A DNA stretch of 64,000 bases from Candidatus Nomurabacteria bacterium. Lineage in GTDB: Bacteria; Patescibacteriota; Minisyncoccia; Phycocordibacterales; UBA918. Under the pieces are notes generated by a model. It was not told the origin of the DNA, did no database searches, and saw only the letters and a program-made list of their open reading frames with translations. The position numbers and the translations under genes were made by a program. Where the stretch lies: positions 90,773 through 154,772 of the forward strand of contig JACKGJ010000002.1 of the NCBI GenBank assembly GCA_020631995.1, in the 5' to 3' direction. Positions 7,278 to 43,806 of this stretch are shown here, piece after piece (within the stretch, counting starts at the first letter, position 1; each line of letters starts with the position of its first letter).

Positions 7278-7624
7278 TGAGATTAAAATAGCACTAAAAG
7301 TGTAAAAGTCTAGGTTGTAGAACAGATGAAACTTGTCTGGTTGCATGGCTGGACCTTTGACTCCGTATAAGTGGCGGTTAAGAAAACCGGTACTAGAGAT
7401 TTTGTAAATAACCGTTCTTGTTGGTTAAAGGTAAATTTTTTGTGTATTAGCATTATTTTCACAAAGAACAACCCACCCCTGTGGATAACTCAGAATGGTG
7501 CAGTTTTCCCTTCCAGAAAATACGGCTTAGATAAGGGCTTTTTGCGTAAAAGTTTGATTTTAATGTTTCGAGCTTAAATTTATACCATTTTTAAGCCGTG
7601 TTTAAATATAAGTAGATAGCATTT

Positions 7625-7716
7625 TGTGCAGGCGTCGTGATTTTCACGGCAAGTTATTGCCGTAGAGCTGATCACTGTTGGGGCAAATGCCCCAACGAAA
7701 TCGTGACGCCTGCACA
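7625..7716 (+). ncRNA. Candidate structured RNA, three-way junction, unclassified
   Basis: 19-bp closing stem 7625-7643 / 7698-7716, including two G.U pairs that work only on the plus strand. Hairpins ACGGCAA/TTGCCGT (7646-7663) and GTTGGGGC/GCCCCAAC (7677-7696). Confidence 0.3.
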
Positions 7717-7810
7717 GTACACTATCTGCCCTCTTTACAGATTAACAGGAAAAGGTCGACTGTCATGTCTGTTTTCCACAGGGCTTTAAAAGTATCATTT
7801 TGTTCTTAGT

Positions 7811-7978
7811 ATGACAAATAAACGTTTTCGCGGACTTCGCCCACTAAAACCATTGGATAGAATGCAAAACATGCGGACAATGAGACCAATGGGAGCAAAG
7901 AAGTGGGTTAAGGCTCACTGGAGATGGGACTATGACCGACGGCAGTGGGAATGGGTAACGGGACATTGGAGTAGATAA
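7811..7978 (+). CDS. Small basic Trp-rich protein (55 aa), YXWGXW-repeat-like
   Basis: Own translation: MTNKRFRGLRPLKPLDRMQNMRTMRPMGAKKWVKAHWRWDYDRRQWEWVTGHWSR. It is below the track length cut-off. A GCCGA/TCGGC hairpin plus TATTTTCTT follows near 8041-8067. Confidence 0.4.
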   Translation: MTNKRFRGLRPLKPLDRMQNMRTMRPMGAKKWVKAHWRWDYDRRQWEWVTGHWSR

Positions 7979-8103
7979 TATCGTTGTGGTCACAAGTTAC
8001 TAAGTATAATCGTGCATTTCATGCAGATTATACTAAGTACTTGCCGACCCCGCCTCGGCTATTTTCTTCACTAGGAAGGGTTCAGAAAATTATGCCTGCG
8101 GCC

Positions 8104-8195
8104 TCACATCAGGCCCGAAACTGAAGCAGTTCAGTTTCTACACAAGAAAACACTACCTCACGGAGAAGTAGTGTTTTCTTGTGTGCCTGATGTGA
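8104..8195 (-). other. Compact three-way-junction structure in the tRNA-Glu 3' trailer
   Basis: Stems 8104-8114/8185-8195 (11 bp), 8117-8125/8130-8138 (9 bp) and 8140-8156/8168-8184 (17 bp). Only 3 unpaired junction nucleotides. Confidence 0.3.
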
Positions 8196-8264
8196 CCCTA
8201 CAGGGAATCGAACCCTGATTTAAGCCTTGAGAAGGCTCCGTCCTAACCGTTAGACGATAGGGCC
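8193..8264 (-). tRNA. tRNA-Glu (anticodon CUC)
   Basis: GGCCCTATCGTCTAACGGTTAGGACGGAGCCTTCTCAAGGCTTAAATCAGGGTTCGATTCCCTGTAGGGTCA folds as a 72-nt cloverleaf with anticodon loop TTCTCAA. CCA is not encoded. Confidence 0.9.
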
Positions 8265-25611: not shown

Positions 25612-26202
25612 CTAGGTTTTAAGACTTAAGGCCAGTTCCTCAAGCAACATCTTTCGGGAAGCTCCCCGATTATAAACATATTTTTCGCAGAGCAACAATG
25701 AGCGCTTAGCGTCCGGTGATAATTCTGTGAGATGCTTCTCTCCGAGTTCGCGTACTATTCTACCTAAAGTCTGAGGGTCGTCTTTAGCTAATTTCGCTAT
25801 TGTATCTATACGCTCTTTCACAGATTGTTCAAGAAATTCAGTTGCCGACTTACTTTCTGTAGATGTGTTGCTGGTGACAATGAGGCGGGAACGTAGGGTT
25901 GGAATGAGAATTGATGTGTGAGGGACAATTAGATAGAAGACGGTGTTCTCTGGTGGCTCCTCAAACAATTTTAAAAGAGCGTTTTGAGCTTCGTGAGTTA
26001 ATCCCTTAGCTACAATTACAAATTGGTGGAGTCCGGTCCCAAGCGCCTTCTTGGCACTTTCTTTCACTAACCAACGTGCCTCATCTATGCTGAGATTTTC
26101 GGTGAATAGATGTCGAGTGTCAGTGGTCTCAGACTTTAGCTCCTCTGGCAGTGAGGCGTTTAGAAGAGAGTCGGCTACCAAGAGCTGAGCGTGAGCAATC
26201 AT
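25612..26202 (-). CDS. holB: DNA polymerase III delta-prime-like protein (short)
   Basis: AQNALLKLFEEPPENTVFYLIV and SRL (sensor) motifs of clamp-loader delta-prime. Only 196 aa, with no P-loop. Confidence 0.6.
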   Translation of the reverse strand: MIAHAQLLVADSLLNASLPEELKSETTDTRHLFTENLSIDEARWLVKESAKKALGTGLHQFVIVAKGLTHEAQNALLKLFEEPPENTVFYLIVPHTSILIPTLRSRLIVTSNTSTESKSATEFLEQSVKERIDTIAKLAKDDPQTLGRIVRELGEKHLTELSPDAKRSLLLCEKYVYNRGASRKMLLEELALSLKT

Positions 26203-26214
26203 CTGCTCATTTTA

Positions 26215-27933
26215 TCATAATTCTTTGTTGCCCTGCGTTCTCTGCCTCTCTAGTACTTGGCGAATTACTCGACGTAGATAATTTTCAAAAGTCTCACCCA
26301 TTTCGTGCATTACTCCCTGCTCGTAGCGCCAGCCAGTCATATAGTCACTAAGGTGGCGTTTAATTTCGGGAGTTACTCCTTCAAAGCGCCCTGATACCAC
26401 TGCTGCCATCGGCATTCCTGCCAATTTTTTATAAAGCGGGTGGTCTATGCCAGATGGACCGGTACCAAGGAAGCCACTCTTTTTAAATAGTACCCATTCA
26501 GATAGTAATTGTTTAAGTCCGGCCTCAATTTGAGGAGACTTTAAATCAGTGATTGGCTTTTTAGCTTCTTCTTCCCGCTTGGCGGACGCAGACTTTATGG
26601 CCGCCATTTTTTCTGGCAGGGTTGCAGATGCATTTTGAAGTGGTTGGAGTTTGTCTGACTGGGTACTTTGTGTAGCTGGACTAGGTGCAGGTGCGGAATC
26701 TTTAACCTCGACCTTTCTAATGTCTGCTATCGGTCTTTTTGGTGCGGTTTCACCTTGTTCCTCATCCTTCTTTGACTGTTCTGGAGACCTGAAAAACTTA
26801 CTAGCAAAAGAAGATAGTTTATTGTCATCAGTAGAAGTTTCTGCATCAAGCTCATCGGAAGGACGATGATACAAGCCTTCAGACTGCTGAGGAGGAGTTA
26901 CATTTTCTGGAGTTGGTTCGGGTTTAGGTTCTGGTGTAGTTGTAGCGACTGGTGCCGGAGTTGGTACTGGAGTGGGAGCTGGTTCCGGTTCTGCTACTTT
27001 GGGAGCTGGCGCGTCGGGCTGAGGAGCAGCAGGAGCTTTGGGTTGCTTAGTTTCAGCTTCAACTTCAACCAGTTTGGTCTCAGTTGGTTGCTCTGACGGT
27101 CGGCCTAAACCCTTTTCGATAATTAAGTCGAGTGTAGCTTTGTACGCAGTCTCTAGTCGTGGGAGTGCTTCGGCTCCCCCACCTGTACTTGAACGCTTCA
27201 TAGCGTCAAGAAGAGCTGACATATACTCCCTACCAATTGCCTCATCAGCGTTTATTACATTAACGGGATTACCAACTCGACTGTTGATATCGTGTTTAAT
27301 GGCATCAATACGGGCACGCACATCTGTGACTGGTGTAGTTGTAGTGACTGGTTCGGGAGTTGAAGTAGGAGCGGGTGCTGGCGCAGGAGTCGGCTCAACT
27401 TCTTTGGGTGCGGGTGGTGCTGATTCTATAGGTTGTGGTGCAGGTGTTACGGGTGCCGATGCACTTACTGGAGCTACTTTTTCTTCTACAGATGACTCCA
27501 TCTCTTTAATAGGAGGTGGTACTGGAGTAGGTGCTTCAGTACCGATTGTCTTTACTGGTGGCGCGTTGGTTATTACAAAGTTCGGAGTCGGACGGGTTTG
27601 TCCCAATGAGGAAGAGGTTTGAGTCTTAGGAATACTTGCCTCTTTTTGTTTGGTGGTTGTTTCACTCGCACTATCGTTCACTACTAGTGAGGATAGTTGT
27701 GGGTGCTGCTTTATTTGTTCTAGAATTTGATTCTTAATTGATGTTCTTTTTGCCTCATCACCTTCTCCAGCGTAGGTTAGAAACAGATTTCTTAAAGAAT
27801 CTTTCTCACTAGGTGAAATAGCCGCTTGGCGCAGTGTAGATAACGCTTTCACGACGCCAGCCTCGCCACCAAAAATATCGGTGTCGGAGTTTTTTGCGAC
27901 GTTTAAATCACCCGAAGGAGCGACGGCGTTCAT
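26215..27933 (-). CDS. Large Pro/Ala/Thr/Glu-rich low-complexity protein with a conserved-looking C-terminal domain
   Basis: 572 aa. Long PAPxP/TPEP tracts interrupted by short folded-looking segments. C-terminal about 110 aa is non-repetitive (GFLGTGPSGIDHPLYKKL...GWRYEQGVMHEMGETFENYLRRV). Confidence 0.6.
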   Translation of the reverse strand: MNAVAPSGDLNVAKNSDTDIFGGEAGVVKALSTLRQAAISPSEKDSLRNLFLTYAGEGDEAKRTSIKNQILEQIKQHPQLSSLVVNDSASETTTKQKEASIPKTQTSSSLGQTRPTPNFVITNAPPVKTIGTEAPTPVPPPIKEMESSVEEKVAPVSASAPVTPAPQPIESAPPAPKEVEPTPAPAPAPTSTPEPVTTTTPVTDVRARIDAIKHDINSRVGNPVNVINADEAIGREYMSALLDAMKRSSTGGGAEALPRLETAYKATLDLIIEKGLGRPSEQPTETKLVEVEAETKQPKAPAAPQPDAPAPKVAEPEPAPTPVPTPAPVATTTPEPKPEPTPENVTPPQQSEGLYHRPSDELDAETSTDDNKLSSFASKFFRSPEQSKKDEEQGETAPKRPIADIRKVEVKDSAPAPSPATQSTQSDKLQPLQNASATLPEKMAAIKSASAKREEEAKKPITDLKSPQIEAGLKQLLSEWVLFKKSGFLGTGPSGIDHPLYKKLAGMPMAAVVSGRFEGVTPEIKRHLSDYMTGWRYEQGVMHEMGETFENYLRRVIRQVLERQRTQGNKEL

Positions 27934-28132
27934 ATCACTATTATTGTATCACTGTGTCTACTAACAACACGTGTGTTTGTGTGAATTGTGAACTGTGAAT
28001 TACTAACTTCTTTATAAACTAAATGAAGTTGTGCTGGTTGGAAGAATTTTTGGCGACAGAGCCTTAGATTAAACTAAGGTGACCGAGCCAAAATTCTGAA
28101 ACCAGTGCAAATTCGTTAGTTTTAGAAGAAGG

Positions 28133-29146
28133 CTATCGTTTGGCGAGAATAGTTTGCTTATAGCTGTCCAAATGCTCAAGTGCAATACCAGTACCTTTAG
28201 CGACACAGAAGAGTGCTTGGTCGGCGAGTGTGGCAGATACTCCAGTTCGTCGACGAATCAGTTCTGGAAAATTACGTAGTTGCGAAGTACCGCCAGTCAT
28301 AATGATTCCACTATCCATAATGTCTGAAGCGAGCTCTGGTGGAGTGTTTTGAAAAACATCCTTAATGGCCTTAATCATTTCGCGAAGTTCCTTTCCAATT
28401 GCTTGAACAACTTCGTTGGTCTTTATTTCAGTGATTCGGGGAAGGCCAGTTAGAGTATCGATACCTTTTATTTCTATCGTTAGCTCTTCTTGGACCGGCA
28501 AGGCGGAGCCAATTTTAATCTTTATATCTTCAGCAGTTTTTTCACCAATAGAAAGATTACGAGTTTTCTTTACGTGATCAATGATGGCAGCGTCGATTCT
28601 GTTTCCGGCACACTTCACTGAGTTTGAAGCTACGATTCCACCAAGCGAAATCACCGCCACGTCGATGGTTCCACCACCACAGTCCACTATCATATGTCCT
28701 TGAGGTTCGTAAATTGGTACACCTGCTCCGATAGCAGAGAGAATCGGTTCTTTAACTACGTAGGCGTTTTTAGCACCAGCCTTAATAGCCGCTTCTACCA
28801 CCGCTCTCTTTTCTGTCGAGGTAACTCCAGCTGGCACAGATATCAAAACTTCTGGACGAAAAAAATTCCACCGGCCGAGCGCCTCTCGGATGAAGTGGTT
28901 TAACATTATTTCAGTGACACGGTAGTCAGCAATTACACCGTCGCGAAGTGGACGGTAGGCGTGGATGGTGTCGGGTGTACGACCAATCATTTCTTTGGCG
29001 GCGGTCCCTACCGCTAGAACTTGATTGTCATTTGATACCGCCACCACTGAGGGTTCATTTAAAACAACCCCCTGACCGGGTATGAATACTAAGACACTGG
29101 TGGTGCCTAGGTCTATACCGAGTTTAGGGGTAAATCGTGAAAGCAT
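28133..29146 (-). CDS. Second MreB-like actin homolog
   Basis: LGIDLGTTSVLVF, IVDCGGGTIDVAV and MTGGTSQL phosphate/adenosine motifs. The ATG at 29144-29146 is preferred over the upstream GTG. Confidence 0.8.
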   Translation of the reverse strand: MLSRFTPKLGIDLGTTSVLVFIPGQGVVLNEPSVVAVSNDNQVLAVGTAAKEMIGRTPDTIHAYRPLRDGVIADYRVTEIMLNHFIREALGRWNFFRPEVLISVPAGVTSTEKRAVVEAAIKAGAKNAYVVKEPILSAIGAGVPIYEPQGHMIVDCGGGTIDVAVISLGGIVASNSVKCAGNRIDAAIIDHVKKTRNLSIGEKTAEDIKIKIGSALPVQEELTIEIKGIDTLTGLPRITEIKTNEVVQAIGKELREMIKAIKDVFQNTPPELASDIMDSGIIMTGGTSQLRNFPELIRRRTGVSATLADQALFCVAKGTGIALEHLDSYKQTILAKR

Positions 29147-29212
29147 TACGCTAGAGTATAACAAAACTTTATCCACATTGTCTGATATAGCCTATATGCT
29201 ATATTGGTATGT

Positions 29213-30739
29213 ATGAAAACAAGTGAGACAAATAATTTAGGAAAGCGAATCGCAGACCTACGCGAAGCAGCGGGAATGACTCAGACAGAGCTAGCTCGTA
29301 AGCTCAAGACCACCCAAAGTGCTATAGCTCGTATTGAAGCGGGTAAGCAAAATATTTCGACCGACACATTAAAGAAACTCTCTCGTGCTCTGGGGCGCAA
29401 TGTTTTGTCCTTGTCAGTTGGAAGTTTGAGTCTTGAAATCGTGGGAGGTAAAAAACTTCACGGTACTATTGAAACTAATACCTCTAAGAATGGCGCAGTA
29501 GGGCTTTTGTGTGCCTCACTTTTAAACAAAGGTAAAACTACGCTCCGCCGGATGCCACGCATCGAAGAGGTTCATCGCATCATCGAGGTGCTCGAATCAA
29601 TCGGCACAAGTGTGGTGTGGCATGGTAGCGACATTGTTATTACTCCACCTAAAAAGCAACAACTTGAAAAAATAGACAAGGAGGCAGCGGTGAAGACCCG
29701 TAGCATCATAATGTTTATTGGTGCCCTGATGCATCGCTTTGATAAATTTTCTCTACCGCAATCTGGTGGATGCAAGCTTGGCAGTCGTACTGTCCGTCCG
29801 CACTTCTACGCTCTTGAGCACTTTGGCGTTGATATCAATACGACCGAAACCGCCTTTGAAGTGAAGGTTGCGCCACGGAAAGCTAAGACAGAGGAGCGTG
29901 AGGTAATTCTTTATGAGTCTGGGGATACTGTGACTGAGACCGCTTTGTTTGCGGCTGCTCTCACGCCAGGACGCACAGTTATCAAATACGCCACGTCTAA
30001 CTATATGGTGCAGGAGGTGTGCGCCTTCTTGATGAAGGCTGGTGTATCAATAGAAGGAGTTGGTACTACTACTTTGATTGTTGATGGTCTGGCTGAGTTT
30101 GATATGAATATTGAGTACACGCTTTCTGAAGATCCAACCGATAGTATGTTCTTCTTAACTTCAGCTATTGTCACTAATTCAGCCATTACCATCACTCGTT
30201 GTCCTATCGACTTCTTGGAACTGGAACTCCTGGTATTAAAGAAGATGGGCTTTAAGTATGAGCAGAGCAAACCGTACTTGTCTGAGAACGGTTTGACCAA
30301 ACTGGTGGATATTAAGACAAAGCCGTCTAAACTCATTGCTCCACCGGAGAAGGTTCACTCGCGTCCGTATCCTGGCCTCAATGCCGATAATCTTCCCTTC
30401 TTTGCGGTGATTGCCACTCAGGCTGAAGGCCAGACACTTATTCACGACTGGATGTACGAGAAGCGTGCTCTATACTTCACCGAACTCGACAAGCTGGGCG
30501 GTGACACTCTCTTGGCGGATCCACACCGTATTTATATAAATGGTCGTACACCGCTAAAGGCTGCAGAGCTTATTTCCCCACCTGCCCTTCGTCCGGCCAC
30601 CATTCTCTTGATTGCAATGCTCGGTGCTGAAGGTCGCTCGGTCTTGCGTAACATCTATTCAATTAATCGTGGTTATGAAAAGTTGGTAGAGAGACTTTCG
30701 TCGCTTGGAGCCCAGATAAAATATTTGGAGGAGTTTTAG
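29213..30739 (+). CDS. murA: XRE-type HTH domain fused to UDP-N-acetylglucosamine 1-carboxyvinyltransferase
   Basis: N-terminal LGKRIADLREAAGMTQTELARKLKTTQSAIARIEAGKQNIS (HTH_XRE). The MurA body keeps the catalytic equivalents: TSKNGA (Lys22), SGGCKLGSRTVRPH (Cys115 loop), LNADN (Asp305), ALRPAT (Arg397) and NRGYE. Confidence 0.8.
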   Translation: MKTSETNNLGKRIADLREAAGMTQTELARKLKTTQSAIARIEAGKQNISTDTLKKLSRALGRNVLSLSVGSLSLEIVGGKKLHGTIETNTSKNGAVGLLCASLLNKGKTTLRRMPRIEEVHRIIEVLESIGTSVVWHGSDIVITPPKKQQLEKIDKEAAVKTRSIIMFIGALMHRFDKFSLPQSGGCKLGSRTVRPHFYALEHFGVDINTTETAFEVKVAPRKAKTEEREVILYESGDTVTETALFAAALTPGRTVIKYATSNYMVQEVCAFLMKAGVSIEGVGTTTLIVDGLAEFDMNIEYTLSEDPTDSMFFLTSAIVTNSAITITRCPIDFLELELLVLKKMGFKYEQSKPYLSENGLTKLVDIKTKPSKLIAPPEKVHSRPYPGLNADNLPFFAVIATQAEGQTLIHDWMYEKRALYFTELDKLGGDTLLADPHRIYINGRTPLKAAELISPPALRPATILLIAMLGAEGRSVLRNIYSINRGYEKLVERLSSLGAQIKYLEEF

Positions 30740-30859
30740 AAATTGTTAAAAATCGCGCTCTGTCCAAAAGTCGCAGAAAACTCGCTGCAAAAGCTTAGAG
30801 AATTCTGTGATTTTTTGTTAAAACTTTCAACTTTTAGCTTTACGCTTTAAACTGTCCGT

Positions 30860-32752
30860 ATGTACGTAATCCAAGTCTCTCCGCTTTTAAAGGGTGCCAA
30901 CCTAGAATCTCTAACTTATTTCTCGGGAGTGCCGTACGAGCTTGGGACTCTACTTCGTATTCCGGTCAGAAACAGTGAAGCTACCGGGATGGTGTTGTCT
31001 GTGAAGCCGGTGTCGGCAGCGCGGACCGCGGTCCGCGCTGCTACCTTCTCACTCCGTCGCCTGCCTGAGCAGACTGGCAACGCAAGCTTGTCTCCACTTC
31101 TCATTAAGACCGCCACAGCCTTGCTGGACGAAGTGCCGGCTGGTTTTGGTTCGATACTTTTTTCACTTTTGCCACCGGAAGTGCGTGATGGTAGTGAGCA
31201 ATATCCTTTTGCTCCCGAAAGTACTAGTGAAAAGAGTGACGCTACCGTATCAGTGATTACTGCTGTTACAGAAGAAAGGTGGCGTACCTATAAGAGTCGG
31301 GTTCGTGAAGCTTTTGCTCACCGCGGATCCGTTCTCTTTGTTTCCCCTACCGCCAGAGCGGCTGCGAGTGCCGCCGAAAGACTGCTTCCTGGTATCAAAG
31401 ATCGTGCCATTATTTTCTCACCAGCGCTGACTGCTAAAAGTTTAAGGAAGGCTTTTCAAAGTGTTACCGACCTTTCTACTTCTAAGCTGATTATCGTCAC
31501 CCCAGGATACGCTTTTTTAGACCGTCACGACATCACAGACATTATTATTGATGAAAGTCGCAGTCAGCACTATCGCTCTCGTACCAGACCGTATCTTGAC
31601 TATAAGGCTGCGTTGATAAAGATGGCTTCTATCGGAGGACGAAACGTTCTCTTAGGTGACCTGCTTCATAAAGCAGAAGACGAATACAAGAGAAGGACAG
31701 AAGAGTATATGACCGAAGGTGAGGAACAACTTAGAGTGGCTTTTCCAAACACGGTAAAACTATTAGTAGCAAAAGACAAAGCTACAGGAGACACTGCTTT
31801 CAAACTTATTGCTCCTGAATCAAAGGCGGCACTGACGAAAACTTTAAAAGAAAGAAAGAACGCGTTTGTGTATGCTGCCAGACGTGGGCTTGCACCGGTT
31901 GTGGCCTGTATGGACTGCGGACATATCTTTCGCTGTCCTCATTCAGGCACACCTTACTCGCTCTTTCGTACCTTCAAGGACGGTGATGAGAAGCGCTGGT
32001 TCCTTTCTTCTGTGTCGGGTCGTCGTGTGAAAGCGCCAGACAATTGTTCAGAATGTGGTTCGTGGCGACTTAAAGAGCGTGGGATTGGTATCCAATATAT
32101 TGAAGAAGAATTAAAAAAGCATTTTCCACCTGAGAAGATATTTATCTTTGACCACAGTACAGCTTCGACAGCCAGGAAGGCTGCTTCTATCATTGGAGAT
32201 TTCTATGAAGAAAAAGGGGCCATCCTCATCGGCACAGCAATGGCTATTCCCTATCTTGAGAAGCCAGTTTCGCTTGGCTTGGTTACTTCGCTTGATGCAG
32301 CGAGAGCCGTCCCAACTTGGCGGGTGGATGAGGATTGTCTCGCGCTCTTATTAACACTACGTGAAAATGTGGAGGAGGAATTAATTATCCAGAGTCGTAG
32401 TGAGCCGGATGAGTTAATGGATTACTTACGCAAAGGCCAGATCAGTAATTTCTTCAATGATGAACTTAAGCTACGTGAAGAGGTTGGCTATCCTCCTTTC
32501 TCACATTTGATTCACCTTACTATGAAAGGAAAAGAAGAAGCTGTGAAAATGTTGGAGAACGAAGTGAGCACACTCCTTGCGGACTTCAACTTCTCTTTCT
32601 ATAGTTCACCTGATTCAACAACAGAAAGTACCACTCGCTATGCCTTGCTGCGCGTCAGTAACGAAAAGTGGCCGTGGCAGAAACTGATGGAGGTTTTGCG
32701 TAGTCTTCCACTATCGGTAAAGGTGGAGGTGAATCCAGATCGATTGGTTTAG
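30860..32752 (+). CDS. priA: PriA-like primosomal protein with degenerate Walker A
   Basis: PriA zinc-binding Cys cluster CMDCGHIFRCPHSG...CSECGS and overall collinearity. The GxGKT position reads AVTEERWRTY and DEEH reads DESR. Confidence 0.7.
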   Translation: MYVIQVSPLLKGANLESLTYFSGVPYELGTLLRIPVRNSEATGMVLSVKPVSAARTAVRAATFSLRRLPEQTGNASLSPLLIKTATALLDEVPAGFGSILFSLLPPEVRDGSEQYPFAPESTSEKSDATVSVITAVTEERWRTYKSRVREAFAHRGSVLFVSPTARAAASAAERLLPGIKDRAIIFSPALTAKSLRKAFQSVTDLSTSKLIIVTPGYAFLDRHDITDIIIDESRSQHYRSRTRPYLDYKAALIKMASIGGRNVLLGDLLHKAEDEYKRRTEEYMTEGEEQLRVAFPNTVKLLVAKDKATGDTAFKLIAPESKAALTKTLKERKNAFVYAARRGLAPVVACMDCGHIFRCPHSGTPYSLFRTFKDGDEKRWFLSSVSGRRVKAPDNCSECGSWRLKERGIGIQYIEEELKKHFPPEKIFIFDHSTASTARKAASIIGDFYEEKGAILIGTAMAIPYLEKPVSLGLVTSLDAARAVPTWRVDEDCLALLLTLRENVEEELIIQSRSEPDELMDYLRKGQISNFFNDELKLREEVGYPPFSHLIHLTMKGKEEAVKMLENEVSTLLADFNFSFYSSPDSTTESTTRYALLRVSNEKWPWQKLMEVLRSLPLSVKVEVNPDRLV

Positions 32753-35154: not shown

Positions 35155-36024
35155 CTATTTCTGACACTTTGGACAAAAATGGGTGCCTCGGCCAGCAACT
35201 TTAGTCTTTTCTATGATGGATTTGCACCGATAGCAAGGTAATCCTTGGCGGGCAAAAACTAACAAATGGCTACTGTGTCCACCGGCCTGTCCGTCTGTGT
35301 CGGCAAAGCTTTGAAAGGTAGTGCCCCCATTTTTTATAGCCTCCTCAAGAACTTCTTTAGATGCTTTTGCCAAGCGGGCTGACTCGCTCTTCTTTAAAGT
35401 GTTGGCACGACGGTCTGGGCGTATTTTGGCCTTAAACAACGCTTCATCTACATAGATGTTACCGAGACCGGCTACGAAAGATTGGTCGAGTAGCACAGCT
35501 TTTATTAAAGCGTTCTTTTTTGCTAGTCTAGACATAAAATCTTCCGTACTGAAGTTGTCTGCAATCGGTTCTGGTCCAAACTTAAGCATTGTCGCCGAAA
35601 GTCCTTCTTCGTCGGTGAGACGCAGATAACCAAATAGTCTCATATCATTGAAGTACAGGGTGCTACCGCCAACAAAATGAATAGCGACGCGTGTGTGTCT
35701 GCCGGGAAATTTAGCTGTATCACGATGAGTGGCTGTGTGTCCTCCTCCGCCAGAGAGTCTCCCCGCTTTGTCCGTGAAAAAGAATTGGCCAGTCATCTTT
35801 AGGTGAGCCAACATAAACAAGTTTTTCTGTCCGGAGAATTTAAAGATAAGCAACTTCCCTATTCGGTCGATGTCAGATATTTTCAAACCGATTAACCTAT
35901 CAGCAAAACTAGAGTCACGACTGACCGATTTCGGGTGCAGTATATCCACTGCGGAAATCTTCTTTCCTTTAAGCTTGTTCCATAACTGAACTCTAACTGT
36001 TTCTACTTCTGGTAATTCTGGCAT
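35155..36024 (-). CDS. mutM: Formamidopyrimidine-DNA glycosylase
   Basis: Starts MPELPEVETV (catalytic Pro2) at ATG 36022-36024. H2TH region and C-terminal zinc finger CYRC...CPKC. The track's 35-aa N-terminal extension covers a structured repeat and is rejected. Confidence 0.85.
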   Translation of the reverse strand: MPELPEVETVRVQLWNKLKGKKISAVDILHPKSVSRDSSFADRLIGLKISDIDRIGKLLIFKFSGQKNLFMLAHLKMTGQFFFTDKAGRLSGGGGHTATHRDTAKFPGRHTRVAIHFVGGSTLYFNDMRLFGYLRLTDEEGLSATMLKFGPEPIADNFSTEDFMSRLAKKNALIKAVLLDQSFVAGLGNIYVDEALFKAKIRPDRRANTLKKSESARLAKASKEVLEEAIKNGGTTFQSFADTDGQAGGHSSHLLVFARQGLPCYRCKSIIEKTKVAGRGTHFCPKCQK

Positions 36025-36028
36025 AGCG

Positions 36029-36217
36029 AGGACTCGGTTCAACAATAACAACAATATTACATAGAATATATTGTTTTCGCCATCGTCTGTCGACAAAAAT
36101 CGAGCAGAAATGCACAAAAGCTCACTCACCAGAGGGTTATATGGTTCTTTCCCTTCAGTGCATTTCTACTCGATTCTTGTCGACCATTGAATTGGTGATG
36201 TTATTGAACCGAGTCCT
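36029..36217. repeat. 190-nt nested inverted repeat (candidate structured RNA or MITE-like element)
   Basis: Outer arms 36029-36055 / 36191-36217, with the first 14 bp perfect (AGGACTCGGTTCAA). Inner arms 36089-36115 / 36158-36184 pair at 25/27 positions as DNA. Both mismatches become G.U pairs if the minus strand is transcribed. Confidence 0.5.
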
Positions 36218-36280
36218 ATTCAAAATGAAATCAACTTCTTACCCGTCGTTCTTGTACATACCCATGCTATCATTTATTTA

Positions 36281-37552
36281 ATGAATGAGGACAGTGTCAA
36301 TAATTTTGACTTAGAGGGAGTTACTCGCACGGTAACATACAATAAAAATGAGCGCCTTAGCCTCTTGCGGTCGCTTTCTCTGCCAGAGCGGAGTGCAGTT
36401 TTTAATAATCTCTCCCCTAAAGTACGCGAAGTAGTAATTGATTCTTTGACTTTTAATGAAGTAGTGGAGATGTTGGATCATCTTGATCCACTCCGGGTTC
36501 ATCAGATTCTTTTCAAGATGAGAGACAAGAAGCGGAAGGCAAGATTTCTGTCTAGACTTAAGAGTGATCGTTTTGAAAAGACAGAATATTTTCTTCAATT
36601 TCATCCTGAAGCATCTTTAACTCTGTTTCACCTCAACTATCTCTACCTCTCTGAAGACACCACAGTTGGAGACACCGCAAATATTATTGAGAATCACCTC
36701 CGTACCACTGGAAAGATTCCTGCTATTTTGGTTTCAAAGGGTGGCAAGTTAACTGGTGAGGTGTCGCTCGGAACACTAGTGCGTGAACGAAATACAAACA
36801 AGTTAAAAAACTATGTTAGTCCAGTTAGTACTGTTGCGTATAACACTGACCGAAACAAGGTTTTGGAATTATTTCAATCTACTCCTCATGAAAAAGTAAT
36901 AGTTACTGACAGTGATGGTAGCGTGCTCGGAGTCATTTATTCTGATGATGTGATTGATTTGCTAGATGCGCAGCCAGCAGCGACGCTGTACTCTTTTGCT
37001 GGAGTGGAAGCTAGTGAGAGACCTTTTGATGCCGTATTTGATAAAGTGCGTGGTCGTTATCGCTGGCTCATAATAAACCTAGGGACCTGCTTTATAGCTG
37101 GTGGTACGGTCTCTCTCTTTGGTGAAACTATTAATCAATTTGTTGCACTCGCCATTTTTATGCCAATGATTGCCGGTATGGGTGGCAACACTAGCAATCA
37201 GACTTTTGCTATTATGATACGTGGCATATCAACTGGTGAAATTTCATTAAAGAATAGCTATCCAGCTATGATGCGCGAAATGATTGCTGCAGGAATCAAT
37301 GGACTACTTGTTTCTCTAATGATGGTACCAATAGCTCTATTTTTCGGACTTGATTTGATTATTGCTGTGATTGCAGGAGTAGCCATTGTGTTCAATATGA
37401 TTGTCGGAGGATTTTTTGGGACATTAGTTCCTTTGGTTCTCAAGTACATTGGTAAGGACCCCGCTACTTCAGCTGGTATCTTCATTTCCACTGCCACTGA
37501 CGTGATTGGCTTATTATTCTTCCTTGGACTGGCCACTATTATTTTGTTGTAA
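36281..37552 (+). CDS. mgtE: Magnesium transporter MgtE
   Basis: MgtE N-domain, CBS pair and TM domain with the PMIAGMGGNTSNQ motif. Confidence 0.9.
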   Translation: MNEDSVNNFDLEGVTRTVTYNKNERLSLLRSLSLPERSAVFNNLSPKVREVVIDSLTFNEVVEMLDHLDPLRVHQILFKMRDKKRKARFLSRLKSDRFEKTEYFLQFHPEASLTLFHLNYLYLSEDTTVGDTANIIENHLRTTGKIPAILVSKGGKLTGEVSLGTLVRERNTNKLKNYVSPVSTVAYNTDRNKVLELFQSTPHEKVIVTDSDGSVLGVIYSDDVIDLLDAQPAATLYSFAGVEASERPFDAVFDKVRGRYRWLIINLGTCFIAGGTVSLFGETINQFVALAIFMPMIAGMGGNTSNQTFAIMIRGISTGEISLKNSYPAMMREMIAAGINGLLVSLMMVPIALFFGLDLIIAVIAGVAIVFNMIVGGFFGTLVPLVLKYIGKDPATSAGIFISTATDVIGLLFFLGLATIILL

Positions 37553-43078: not shown

Positions 43079-43314
43079 TATGACCTCCTAAGTCTTGTTT
43101 CGTCTGTTAGTGATACTACAATAAAAACTCAAAATGTCTAGCTCCGCGGGAAGGAATTTCTTTCATTACATGAACGGTACAGGTTGTCACGATTTTTCAT
43201 ACTTCAAAATCGCAGGCAACCTTTTCGAATCCTGACGGAAGTGACGCAGGTCACTTCCTCCCGCGTAGCATTAAAATCAAAGACCACACAAAGTGTGGCC
43301 TAAGATTTTATATG

Positions 43315-43607
43315 CTCCGCGGGCAGGATTCGAACCTGCGACCAATCGATTACACGAATCCCAATGTTTCCAAAGGGCGTGGACTATATCATCACCCACT
43401 AGGGGTGGAAGGCGCTTCCCCGGATTTCTCCGAGTACTCCCGTTAGGGATAGTCTCTGAACCTTTCCTTTGATTACTCTCCGGACTTGGCTGCTGATTGC
43501 CCACGGCTTTACGTTTGGGTTCCCAGCAGTTCACCTTCTTTTCGATCTGGATTACTCCAGAAAGCTGCCTTTGACAGTCGACCGCTCTACCGCTGAGCTA
43601 CCGCGGA
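43315..43607 (-). tRNA. tRNA-Asn (anticodon GUU) interrupted by a group I intron
   Basis: Exon 1 43574-43607 is TCCGCGGTAGCTCAGCGGTAGAGCGGTCGACTGT. Exon 2 43315-43352 is TAATCGATTGGTCGCAGGTTCGAATCCTGCCCGCGGAG. Joined, they give a 72-nt cloverleaf with loop CTGTTAA, a U1-A72 pair and G73, like bacterial tRNA-Asn. Confidence 0.85.
43353..43573 (-). ncRNA. Group I intron, 221 nt, no ORF
   Basis: The 5' exon ends in U and the intron ends in G. GCAG near the intron 5' end can pair with exon CUGU (P1 with a U.G pair). Conserved core strings GCAGCCAAGUCC and GUUCAGAGACUA with the complementary AUAGUC (P7), as in the Tetrahymena and Azoarcus introns. Confidence 0.85.
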
Positions 43608-43700: not shown

Positions 43701-43771
43701 GGGCCCATAGTATAGTGGTAGAACGAATCCATGGCATGGATTAGGTCCGAGTTCGATTCTCGGTGGGTCCA
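43701..43771 (+). tRNA. tRNA-Ala (anticodon GGC)
   Basis: GGGCCCATAGTATAGTGGTAGAACGAATCCATGGCATGGATTAGGTCCGAGTTCGATTCTCGGTGGGTCCA has anticodon loop ATGGCAT and the G3:U70 identity pair. The D-stem is imperfect. Confidence 0.8.
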
Positions 43772-43806
43772 CTTAAATGAAGAATCGGTCATGCTAAAAT
43801 CCGATT

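What the first reader, a model, noticed from the sequence alone, without database searches (positions are those of the whole stretch)
36029..36217. 190-nt nested inverted repeat in the mutM-mgtE divergent intergenic region
The outer arms are 27 nt with 14 perfect terminal bp (AGGACTCGGTTCAA). The inner arms are 27 nt and pair at 25/27 positions. They enclose a 42-nt apical region, with a strongly asymmetric internal loop (about 33 nt against 6 nt).

Both inner-arm mismatches become G.U pairs only if the minus strand is the RNA. The transcript would then end 5 nt before the mutM start codon.

On the plus strand the element precedes mgtE, which commonly carries an Mg-sensing leader. I could not recognise M-box sequence motifs here.

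Alternatives are a novel cis-regulatory leader, a 6S-like or RNase III-substrate RNA, or a MITE. The ORF-track extension of mutM across this element is almost certainly spurious.
Basis: partly seen in the sequence, partly recalled or inferred. Interest (0 to 1): 0.55.

Follow-up and report, generated by a model that had tools for sequence, protein, structure and literature searches.

The report
Hairpin insertion in the mutM leader
A 190-base hairpin-forming piece of non-coding DNA was inserted just upstream of the DNA-repair gene mutM in two of about nine related candidate-phyla-radiation lineages examined; its hairpin has been kept intact as the two copies diverged, and it is not a magnesium sensor for the neighbouring mgtE gene.

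Summary
The nested inverted repeat at 36029-36217 is real (z about -10) and exactly as described. It matches no Rfam family (no M-box, no 6S).

It is a clean ~190-nt insertion. Seven related lineages keep the divergent mutM/mgtE pair with a 34-102-nt spacer and no element, including a relative whose MutM is 89% identical.

One other relative (L103) carries a diverged copy, 86% identical, at the same site and in the same orientation. Flanking genes there are only 61-83% identical and 4-fold sites 43%.

All 69 predicted pairs hold in both copies on the mutM-sense strand. There are 4 double compensatory changes, a paired deletion and 7 wobble changes. Random substitution would keep about 60 of 71 pairs; 70 are kept (P<1e-5). 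Read on the mgtE-sense strand, 12 cells break.

No second copy, no target-site duplication and no transposase were found. The carriers are not each other's closest relatives.

Best reading: a lineage-restricted palindromic insertion element (ERIC/Correia-like, atypical) lying in or providing the mutM leader, with selection on the mutM-sense hairpin.

mgtE appears leaderless, with its promoter downstream of the element. Interest is moderate.

The parts
36028..36217 (-). The ~190-nt inserted element (Y-shaped hairpin on the mutM-sense strand). Removing 36028-36217 restores the 12-nt CAT-to-GAAATC spacing seen in the empty sites.
   Evidence: Alignment with empty sites. Homologous copy at L103:3328-3515.
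36029..36055 (.). Left outer arm. Positions 36029-36041 (first 13 nt) are identical in the L103 copy. On the mutM-sense RNA this is the 3' strand of the closing stem, 4 nt from the mutM AUG.
   Evidence: helix 1: 13 pairs, 12 invariant.
36191..36217 (.). Right outer arm (partner of 36029-36055).
36044..36082 (.). 39-nt block identical in both copies. It holds the AT-rich side hairpin (ACAATATATTCTATGTAATATTGT on the minus strand) and -10-like hexamers on both strands.
   Evidence: (A5 columns 16-54 invariant).
36065..36093 (-). Promoter-like site facing mutM: TCGACA-17-TATATT (10/12). It is kept as TCGACC-17-TATATT in L103. Consensus match only.
36089..36115 (.). Left inner arm of the long helix.
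   Evidence: helix 4.
36158..36184 (.). Right inner arm of the long helix. The arms differ most between the two copies, but every pair is kept on the minus strand.
36116..36157 (.). Non-palindromic apical region. The core 36119-36155 has one change (36139) between the two copies. On the plus strand it carries GAGGG (36132-36136) followed by ATG (36141).
35155..36024 (-). mutM/fpg coding sequence (289 aa; true start MPELPEVE).
36218..36280 (.). Ancestral mutM-mgtE spacer, homologous to the whole 66-nt spacer of empty-site relatives. It includes the conserved GAAATCAAC block and the TGCTATCAT box.
36265..36273 (+). Extended -10-like box TGCTATCAT, 7 nt before the mgtE ATG. A TAnnAT hexamer lies 6-7 nt before the ATG in all ten lineages, so I infer a leaderless mgtE mRNA. 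The reverse complement TGATAGCAT could be the ancestral mutM-facing -10.
   Evidence: Sequence read. Inference, not a tool call.
36281..37552 (+). mgtE coding sequence (423 aa).

Best explanation
A ~190-nt non-coding palindromic element was inserted 4-5 nt upstream of the mutM start codon, within one genus-level group of Patescibacteria (Kaiserbacteria/Nomurabacteria-like).

It is a lineage-restricted insertion element of the ERIC/Correia/MITE-like kind. It is not an ancestral riboswitch or leader.

**Shown**
- It is an insertion, absent from syntenic relatives.
- A second, diverged copy occupies the same site in one other lineage.
- The two copies are far more alike than their flanks.
- Their differences preserve a Y-shaped hairpin: closing stem, small AT-rich side hairpin, ~30-bp long stem.
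- Pairing is complete only on the mutM-sense strand.

**Inferred**
- The element is transcribed in the mutM direction as part of the mutM 5' leader, from the ancestral promoter now displaced about 190 nt upstream.
- Selection keeps the insert tightly folded in that RNA. Folding would bring the old leader back next to the start codon, or stabilise or process the mRNA (for example as an RNase III substrate).
- The invariant AT-rich block may also supply a mutM-facing promoter.
- mgtE is not regulated through this element as a leader. Its promoter-like box lies downstream of the element and implies a leaderless mRNA.
For: **Insertion**
- Spacers of 34-102 nt without the element occur in L010 (MutM 89% identical), L011, L016, L017, L096, L097 and L105-L107. 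All keep mutM and mgtE divergent.
- The window spacer is 256 nt, that is 66 + 190.

**Second copy**
- L103:3328-3515 has the same site, the same orientation and again a 256-nt spacer.

**Island of similarity**
- The element is 163/189 (86%) identical between the two copies.
- Flanking genes are 61-83% identical at nucleotide level; pooled 4-fold sites are 43% (n=522).
- The first 150 nt to the right are 74% identical.

**Structure preserved**
- Both copies give the same fold: -86.9 and -85.5 kcal/mol on the minus strand.
- 69/69 pairs hold in both copies, 138/138 cells. Four pairs changed on both sides and 7 changed on one side via G.U.
- The W G.U pair at A3 columns 49/126 is deleted on both sides in L103.
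- In simulation, 24 random substitutions keep 59.8 +/- 2.2 of 71 pairs. Observed 70; P<1e-5.

**Strand**
- The same pairs read on the plus strand give 125/137 cells.
- By hand count from the table, the palindromic arms hold 8 G.U-on-minus states against 1 A.C.
- MFE favours the minus strand by 7-8 kcal/mol in both copies.

**Not a known RNA**
- No Rfam family at gathering score. At E<=10 only miRNA-hairpin noise and one marginal snoRNA hit (E=9.8) appear.

**No coding**
- No reading frame is shared by the two copies.
Against: - **Only two copies exist,** so covariation rests on one pairwise comparison. The structure tested was derived from these same sequences.
- **No expression data.** Transcription and its strand are inferred.
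- **Template switching in quasi-palindromes** could copy changes from one arm to the other without any RNA-level selection. It would not explain the G.U strand bias.
- **Rates are alike in paired and unpaired columns** (19/144 against 7/45). This fits a younger, recently spread element at least as well as an old constrained RNA.
- **Classical MITE hallmarks are missing.**
  - No target-site duplication longer than 1-2 nt.
  - No second copy in 82 kb of the source contig, 15 kb of L103, or the 1.05 Mb of these and related loci searched with the covariance model.
  - No cognate transposase.
- **The carriers are not sister lineages.** L103 is closer to the empty-site L105/L107 than to the window. 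The history needs loss, recombination or repeated site-specific insertion.
- **A conserved internal promoter-like site** would give a mutM transcript lacking the 5' half of the hairpin.
Confidence: 0.55

Rival explanations
1. A site- and orientation-specific mobile element that leaves no target duplication. It would be a non-autonomous derivative of a single-strand or recombinase-type transposon (IS200/IS605-, IS110/IS1111- or REPIN-like). It would have inserted independently at the same spot in the two lineages, and its strand-specific hairpin would be needed as folded single-stranded DNA for mobilisation.
For: - Same site and orientation in two lineages that are not each other's closest relatives.
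- The similarity island ends at the element's borders.
- No target-site duplication.
- The terminal 13 nt are invariant on both arms.
- Structure is kept with G.T/G.U tolerated on one strand only.
- Paired and unpaired sites diverge at about the same rate, suggesting a common ancestor younger than the host split.
Against: - No second copy in 82 kb of the source contig, 15 kb of L103, or the 1.05 Mb searched with the covariance model.
- No hits in viral, metagenome or genome pattern scans.
- Assemblies run straight through the element, including Logan contigs. By my own knowledge Logan contigs come from a k=31 de Bruijn graph, which argues against near-identical extra copies.
- No transposase with matching ends in the window.
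- The 4 nt next to each end differ between the two filled sites, unlike IS200/IS605 targets.
Confidence: 0.2
2. Selectively neutral palindromic junk DNA. It would be a single old insertion whose arms are kept alike by hairpin-templated replication repair (quasi-palindrome template switching), with no role in RNA. Presence and absence would be shuffled by homologous recombination.
For: - Changes on both arms, and a paired 1-nt deletion, are what template switching produces.
- Recombination at this locus is evident. There are two deep mutM alleles (63% aa) among genomes that are otherwise 80-96% alike, and all four allele-by-element combinations occur.
Against: - Neutral DNA of the age of the host split would be near saturation (4-fold sites 43%), not 86% identical.
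- The non-palindromic parts cannot be corrected by template switching, yet they are the most conserved: the apical core has 1 change in 37 nt and a 39-nt block is invariant.
- One-sided changes are 7 G.U-on-minus against 1 A.C and 1 other (hand count from the table; about 25% each expected for the two wobble classes).
Confidence: 0.1
3. An independent small RNA gene (6S-like RNA or an RNase III-processed hairpin RNA) with its own promoter, acquired by this lineage and only by chance next to mutM.
For: - Size of about 190 nt, a closing stem plus a long helix, and strong structure conservation on one strand.
- Sequence-conserved loops.
Against: - No 6S or any other Rfam family matches, even at E<=10.
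- No terminator-like site follows the element on either strand.
- No consensus promoter upstream of the element on the minus strand in the window.
- It is missing from sister lineages, unlike housekeeping RNAs such as 6S.
- A perfect 27-30-bp helix is unlike the bulged 6S stems (own knowledge).
Confidence: 0.08
4. A plus-strand leader of mgtE: a magnesium-sensing riboswitch or a leader-peptide attenuator.
For: - It lies 63 nt upstream of mgtE.
- On the plus strand the apical loop carries GAGGG-4 nt-ATG, conserved in both copies. In the window that ORF ends in TAATG, overlapping the mgtE start.
Against: - No M-box hit.
- Absent from seven lineages with the same mgtE.
- 12 of 137 cells are unpaired when the structure is read on the plus strand.
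- The small ORF is not conserved: 46 aa against 17 aa, diverging after MVLSL.
- A conserved -10-like box 6-7 nt before the mgtE ATG in all ten lineages puts the likely start of the mgtE mRNA downstream of the element (inference from sequence).
Confidence: 0.03

Closest known systems
ERIC (IRU) and Yersinia YPAL elements, and Correia elements (CREE/NEMIS) of Neisseria: palindromic intergenic MITE-like repeats co-transcribed with neighbouring genes (own knowledge)
   Same: - 100-200 nt, non-coding and nearly whole-length imperfect palindromes.
- Inserted in intergenic leaders close to start codons.
- Present or absent at orthologous sites among relatives.
- They fold into long RNA hairpins in the flanking gene's transcript, and may carry promoter-like sequences.
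   Different: - Those families have tens to hundreds of copies per genome and duplicate a TA target.
- Here there is one copy per genome as far as could be searched, no duplication longer than 1-2 nt, and the same site filled in two genomes.
- The host is a reduced-genome Patescibacterium.
REPINs (REP doublets mobilised by RAYT transposases) and IS200/IS605-derived palindromic elements (own knowledge)
   Same: - Hairpin-forming and without target duplication.
- Hairpin structure is maintained by compensatory change.
- Strand-specific folding is relevant to how they work.
   Different: - REPINs are shorter, very numerous, and accompanied by a RAYT gene.
- IS200/IS605 ends carry two separate subterminal hairpins and a fixed 4-5-nt target.
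- None of this is seen here.
M-box (ykoK) Mg2+ riboswitch, Rfam RF00380
   Same: It lies upstream of a magnesium transporter gene.
   Different: - No sequence or structure match.
- The wrong strand is favoured.
- It is not conserved among mgtE orthologues.
- The mgtE promoter-like box is downstream of the element.
6S RNA, Rfam RF00013
   Same: About 190 nt and a largely double-stranded rod.
   Different: - No match.
- No central bubble architecture.
- Sporadic presence among close relatives.

Membership tests
MITE (miniature inverted-repeat transposable element) | Short (<~500 bp) and non-coding | tested here: met
   189-190 nt. No reading frame is shared by the two copies. Protein searches with its translations found nothing.
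MITE (miniature inverted-repeat transposable element) | Terminal inverted repeats | tested here: met
   14 perfect terminal bp within 27-nt arms. The terminal 13 bp are identical in the L103 copy.
MITE (miniature inverted-repeat transposable element) | Presence/absence polymorphism at orthologous sites (filled and empty sites) | tested here: met
   Filled in the window and L103. Empty in L010, L011, L105-L107, L016, L017, L096 and L097.
MITE (miniature inverted-repeat transposable element) | Target-site duplication flanking the element | tested here: not met
   The flanks are AGCG/ATTC in the window and AATG/(T)ACTT in L103. Three empty sites have 12 nt between CAT and GAAATC, against 13-14 nt plus the element in filled sites. 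At most 1-2 nt could be duplicated. A TA..TA reading needs an asymmetric end.
MITE (miniature inverted-repeat transposable element) | Multiple dispersed copies in the genome | tested here: inconclusive
   - No second copy in 64 kb + 18 kb of the source contig, 15 kb of L103, or the 1.05 Mb searched with the covariance model.
- At most about 10% of the source genome was available, on my own estimate of its size.
- The source genome is not in the genome collection, so one search had no positive control.
MITE (miniature inverted-repeat transposable element) | Cognate autonomous IS with the same ends | tested here: inconclusive
   The terminal 14-mer occurs nowhere else in the window. The rest of the genome could not be read.
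M-box Mg2+ riboswitch (RF00380) | Match to the covariance model | tested here: not met
   No hit at gathering score or at E<=10 on 35900-36400.
M-box Mg2+ riboswitch (RF00380) | Located in the transcribed leader of the regulated gene and conserved among orthologues | tested here: not met
   Absent upstream of mgtE in seven related lineages. A promoter-like box lies between the element and the mgtE ATG (sequence). Transcription itself is not testable here.
6S RNA (RF00013 and related) | Match to the covariance model, and conservation across related genomes | tested here: not met
   No hit. Missing from sister lineages.
REPIN / RAYT system | Many copies of a REP doublet plus a RAYT (IS200-like TnpA) gene | tested here: inconclusive
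   There are no extra copies in the DNA available. RAYT presence in the whole genome was not testable.
Structured cis-acting RNA (generic) | Base pairs maintained by compensatory and wobble substitutions, on one strand | tested here: met
   - 138/138 cells paired on the minus strand against 125/137 on the plus strand.
- 4 double changes.
- Simulation P<1e-5.
- Caveat: only two sequences, and the structure was derived from them.
Structured cis-acting RNA (generic) | The element is transcribed | not testable with these tools
   No expression data were available. There are only consensus promoter-like sites.

The most novel reading that the evidence does not exclude
The element is a new kind of site-specific mobile structured RNA/DNA element in candidate-phyla-radiation bacteria. 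It would home, without target duplication and in one orientation, to the position just upstream of the mutM start codon. It would be kept at one copy per genome. Its Y-shaped hairpin and invariant loops would be the functional core, either as guide or recognition RNA for its own mobility, or as a horizontally spreading regulatory cassette that rewires expression of a mutation-avoidance gene.
Probability: 0.12. Interest if true: 0.75.

Novelty: new variant of a known kind. Interest (0 to 1): 0.4.

Why it matters
- **Annotation.** It removes a false lead: there is no Mg riboswitch and no 6S RNA here. It also corrects a start codon, because one public MutM annotation begins inside the element.
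- **Biology.** I found no paper describing MITE-like elements in Patescibacteria (one full-text search).
- **Gene expression.** An insertion 4 nt from the start codon of the 8-oxoguanine glycosylase gene must change how that gene is expressed, and mutM expression level sets the mutation rate.
- **Evolution.** The hairpin has been kept by compensatory evolution while flanking neutral sites saturated. The element is therefore either functional in the mutM transcript or spreads between lineages. Both are testable with metatranscriptomes and complete genomes.

Tried and rejected
**RNA family searches**
- Rfam at gathering score on the whole window, and at E<=10 on 35900-36400. Apart from miRNA-precursor hairpin noise and one marginal snoRNA hit (E=9.8), nothing matched.

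**Searches for further copies**
- Terminal 14-mer, inner arm, blastn and nhmmer in the window: single copy.
- Exact-pattern scans all returned nothing informative.
  - TIR pair in genome contigs: 0 hits, but the source genome is not in that collection, so there was no positive control.
  - TIR pair in metagenome contigs and relaxed TIR in metagenome contigs: 0 hits.
  - Five viral scans: 0 hits. One search gave 4 hits with no blastn similarity to the element beyond the pattern, so I took them as chance.
- blastn against plasmids and phages: one chance 36-nt hit.
- Covariance model R1 built from the two copies found only those two in 1.05 Mb.
- Translated-peptide searches, hoping gene callers had called ORFs across other copies: no candidates and 0 hits among 1.84 billion representatives.

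**Comparisons that gave no information**
- Four same-species contigs are 100% identical over the spacer. Their differences cluster at 26-32 kb.
- I looked for a recombination tract linking the window and L103 to the right of the element. There is none.

**Ideas rejected**
- Replication origin: no skew signal.
- Conserved small ORF: frames differ between the copies.
- Bridge-RNA-like or guide complementarity between loops and the target site: nothing convincing by eye.
- TA target duplication: possible only with an asymmetric 4-nt extra at one end, so not adopted.

**Literature**
- I found no paper on MITEs in Patescibacteria.

Full report
**1. The observation**

The region was read directly and analysed for repeats.
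- Outer arms 36029-36055 and 36191-36217 are 27 nt and 85% complementary. The terminal AGGACTCGGTTCAA is perfect on both sides.
- Inner arms 36089-36115 and 36158-36184 differ at 2 of 27 positions.
- The apex is 42 nt. The asymmetric segments are 33 nt and 6 nt.
- As RNA, the 197-nt stretch folds at -78.9 kcal/mol on the plus strand and -86.9 on the minus strand. Shuffles give about -39 and -42, z is about -10, and 0 of 200 shuffles fold as well.
- Both inner-arm mismatches are G.U only on the minus strand.
- The element ends 4 nt from the mutM ATG (36024) and 63 nt before the mgtE ATG (36281).
- The long ORF that extends mutM through the element is spurious. MutM begins MPELPEVE as in all relatives.

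**2. Known RNA families**

A Rfam scan of the whole window at gathering score finds only two tRNAs and a group I intron elsewhere. A permissive scan of 35900-36400 (E<=10) gives, apart from one marginal snoRNA hit (E=9.8), only eukaryotic miRNA-precursor models, which is generic hairpin noise. There is no M-box and no 6S.

**3. Source and relatives**

- Exact-protein look-ups place the window on JACKGK010000001.1 of GCA_020632025.1, a Patescibacteria MAG.
- NCBI names its proteins Candidatus Nomurabacteria. The nearest named relatives are Kaiserbacteria.
- Three further assemblies of the same species have an identical spacer. Their differences are confined to 26-32 kb, so they carry no comparative information.

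**4. It is an insertion**

- Relatives that keep mutM and mgtE divergent have short spacers and no element:
  - L010 (MutM 89% identical): 66 nt.
  - L011: 66 nt.
  - L105/L106/L107: 66 nt.
  - L096: 102 nt.
  - L097: 59 nt.
  - L016 and L017: 34 and 37 nt.
- Aligned, the window equals an empty site plus about 190 nt inserted between CATAGC and ATTCAA.
- The remaining 62 nt are homologous to the whole spacer of the empty sites.
- No target-site duplication longer than 1-2 nt can be read.

**5. A second copy**

- L103 (Logan SRR943321; MgtE 87% identical) carries a homologous element at exactly the same site and in the same orientation, again with a 256-nt spacer.
- The two copies are 163/189 (86%) identical.
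- Between the same two genomes, the flanking genes are 61-83% identical at nucleotide level. Pooled 4-fold degenerate sites are 43% identical (n=522), which is near saturation.
- The first 150 nt to the right of the element are 74% identical, no better than against an empty-site relative.

The element is therefore an island of similarity whose limits coincide with its ends.

**6. Structure is preserved, on one strand**

- Both copies fold into the same Y shape: a closing stem, a small AT-rich side hairpin and a ~30-bp long helix with a 30-40-nt apex.
- On the mutM-sense (minus) strand, RNAalifold predicts 69 pairs and all hold in both copies. Four pairs changed on both sides and 7 changed on one side through G.U.
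- One W G.U pair (A3 columns 49/126) is removed in L103 by deletions on both arms.
- The same pairs read on the plus strand give 125 of 137 cells.
- By hand count from the table, the palindromic arms, where pairing does not depend on the folding program, hold 8 G.U-on-minus states, 1 A.C and 1 true mismatch. An 8:1 split has a two-sided binomial probability of about 0.04 (my own arithmetic).
- A simulation applied 24 random substitutions with the observed transition share to one copy. It keeps 59.8 +/- 2.2 of 71 pairs. The observed value is 70, with P<1e-5 in either direction.

Divergence is uneven:
- The terminal 13 bp are invariant.
- A 39-nt block (36044-36082) containing the side hairpin is invariant.
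- The apical core 36119-36155 has one change.
- The long helix and the 36185-36203 linker carry most of the changes.

Caveats: there are only two sequences, and the structure was derived from them. Paired and unpaired columns differ at similar rates (19/144 against 7/45).

**7. History**

- Among the genus-level group, L103 is closer to the empty-site L105/L107 than to the window. MgtE is 90% against 87% identical, grx 90% against 82%, and pooled 4-fold identity 0.50 against 0.43.
- mutM itself exists as two deep alleles.
  - Allele A: window, L009, L010.
  - Allele B: L103, L011, L105/L107.
  - A and B are about 63% identical at protein level, while neighbouring genes are 80-96% identical.
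- All four combinations of allele and element occur.
- One gain with strictly vertical descent therefore does not fit. The history needs homologous replacement of alleles, losses, or repeated site-specific insertion.

**8. Copy number**

- No second copy was found in the window.
- None was found in 18 kb more of the same contig or in 15 kb of L103.
- None was found in the 1.05 Mb of these and related loci searched with a covariance model built from both copies.
- Exact-pattern scans of genome, metagenome and viral collections found nothing. The source genome is not in the genome collection, so that scan had no positive control.
- Several independent assemblies, including Logan contigs, run through the element without a break. 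From my own knowledge of de Bruijn assemblers, this argues against further near-identical copies.
- At most about 10% of the genome could be read, on my own estimate of its size. A low copy number cannot be excluded.

**9. Neighbouring promoters (inference)**

- In all ten lineages a TAnnAT hexamer lies 6-7 nt before the mgtE ATG (window: TGCTATCAT, 36265-36273).
  - This implies a leaderless mgtE mRNA that starts downstream of the element.
  - Its reverse complement, TGATAGCAT, is a candidate ancestral mutM-facing -10. That would put the whole element in a ~233-nt mutM leader.
- The scan tool finds a mutM-facing promoter-like site inside the element: TCGACA-17-TATATT at 36093 to 36065, scoring 10/12. 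It is kept in L103.
  - That site would give a short leader containing only one arm.
  - Which promoter is used cannot be decided here.
- No terminator-like site follows the element on either strand.

**10. Conclusion**

- The element is a lineage-restricted palindromic insertion in or at the mutM leader. It is not an mgtE riboswitch, not 6S RNA and not an ancestral leader.
- It works most like the ERIC/Correia class of hairpin-forming intergenic insertions that are co-transcribed with the adjacent gene.
- It fails or leaves open two defining MITE features: target duplication is not met, and multiple copies are not found.
- It shows an unusual same-site occurrence in two genomes, with strong, strand-specific preservation of its fold.
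- I put 0.55 on the structured mutM-leader insertion reading, 0.2 on an actively site-specific mobile element, and about 0.1 each or less on neutral palindrome, independent sRNA or mgtE leader.

Noticed in passing
window 43314-43607 (-), next to tRNA-Ala(GGC) at 43701-43772 (+): The Rfam group I intron hit (43360-43590, 82.8 bits) sits in the anticodon loop of a tRNA gene. Manual splicing variants give tRNA-Tyr(GUA). Standard tRNA scanning misses this gene.
   Followed up: partly
window 35155-36024 (mutM), compared with L103, L011, L105/L107, L009, L010: mutM exists as two deep alleles within one genus-level group. They are about 63% identical at protein level, while neighbouring genes are 80-96% identical. 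The window allele is closest to L009/L010 (89-90%) and next to L096/L097 (74%). This suggests replacement of the gene by recombination, with one boundary at the mutM 5' end next to the element.
   Followed up: partly
L009:1-175 joined to L104:1-152 (24-nt overlap, both from SRR28374726): In this relative the mutM-mgtE spacer appears to be 303 nt of unrelated sequence with four or five strong hairpins. The same spacer may be a hot spot for hairpin-rich insertions. The join rests only on a 24-nt contig overlap.
   Followed up: partly
L098:2480-2540 (same contig as the window, about 7 kb beyond window position 1) and the L009/L104 spacer: A pair of adjacent small palindromes of the type CTACGTATCATTGATGATACGTAG / CTCCTTATTATCGATGATAAGGAG recurs at unrelated intergenic sites in two genomes (87% over 47 nt, E=8e-10). 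It could be a small repeat family or an operator motif.
   Followed up: no
window 7590-8204, beside tRNA-Glu(CUC) at 8192-8264 (-): An ~850-nt region with little coding potential, rich in long hairpins. These include a 30-nt inverted repeat (7614-7643 / 7698-7727) and a nested repeat (8095-8114 / 8185-8204 around 8140-8184). The outer arm of the nested repeat overlaps the 3' end of the tRNA gene. There is no sequence similarity to the mutM element.
   Followed up: no
window 26000-32000 compared with L002 and L003: Same-species contigs are identical to the window over most of their length. They carry about 300 and about 95 differences packed into 26-32 kb, a pattern typical of a recombination tract or a hypervariable gene.
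   Followed up: no
window 36132-36281 (+): On the plus strand the apical loop carries GAGGG, 4 nt, then ATG, conserved in both copies (peptide starts MVLSL). In the window the 46-codon ORF ends in TAATG, overlapping the mgtE start. In L103 it stops after 17 codons. Probably a coincidence of frames.
   Followed up: partly
P0001 (NCBI protein, 296 aa); by inference window 36025-36045 (-): A public annotation of MutM from a sister assembly is 296 aa, 7 residues longer than the canonical start. By my reading of the sequence it begins at a TTG inside the element's outer arm, a mis-called start caused by the insertion.
   Followed up: yes
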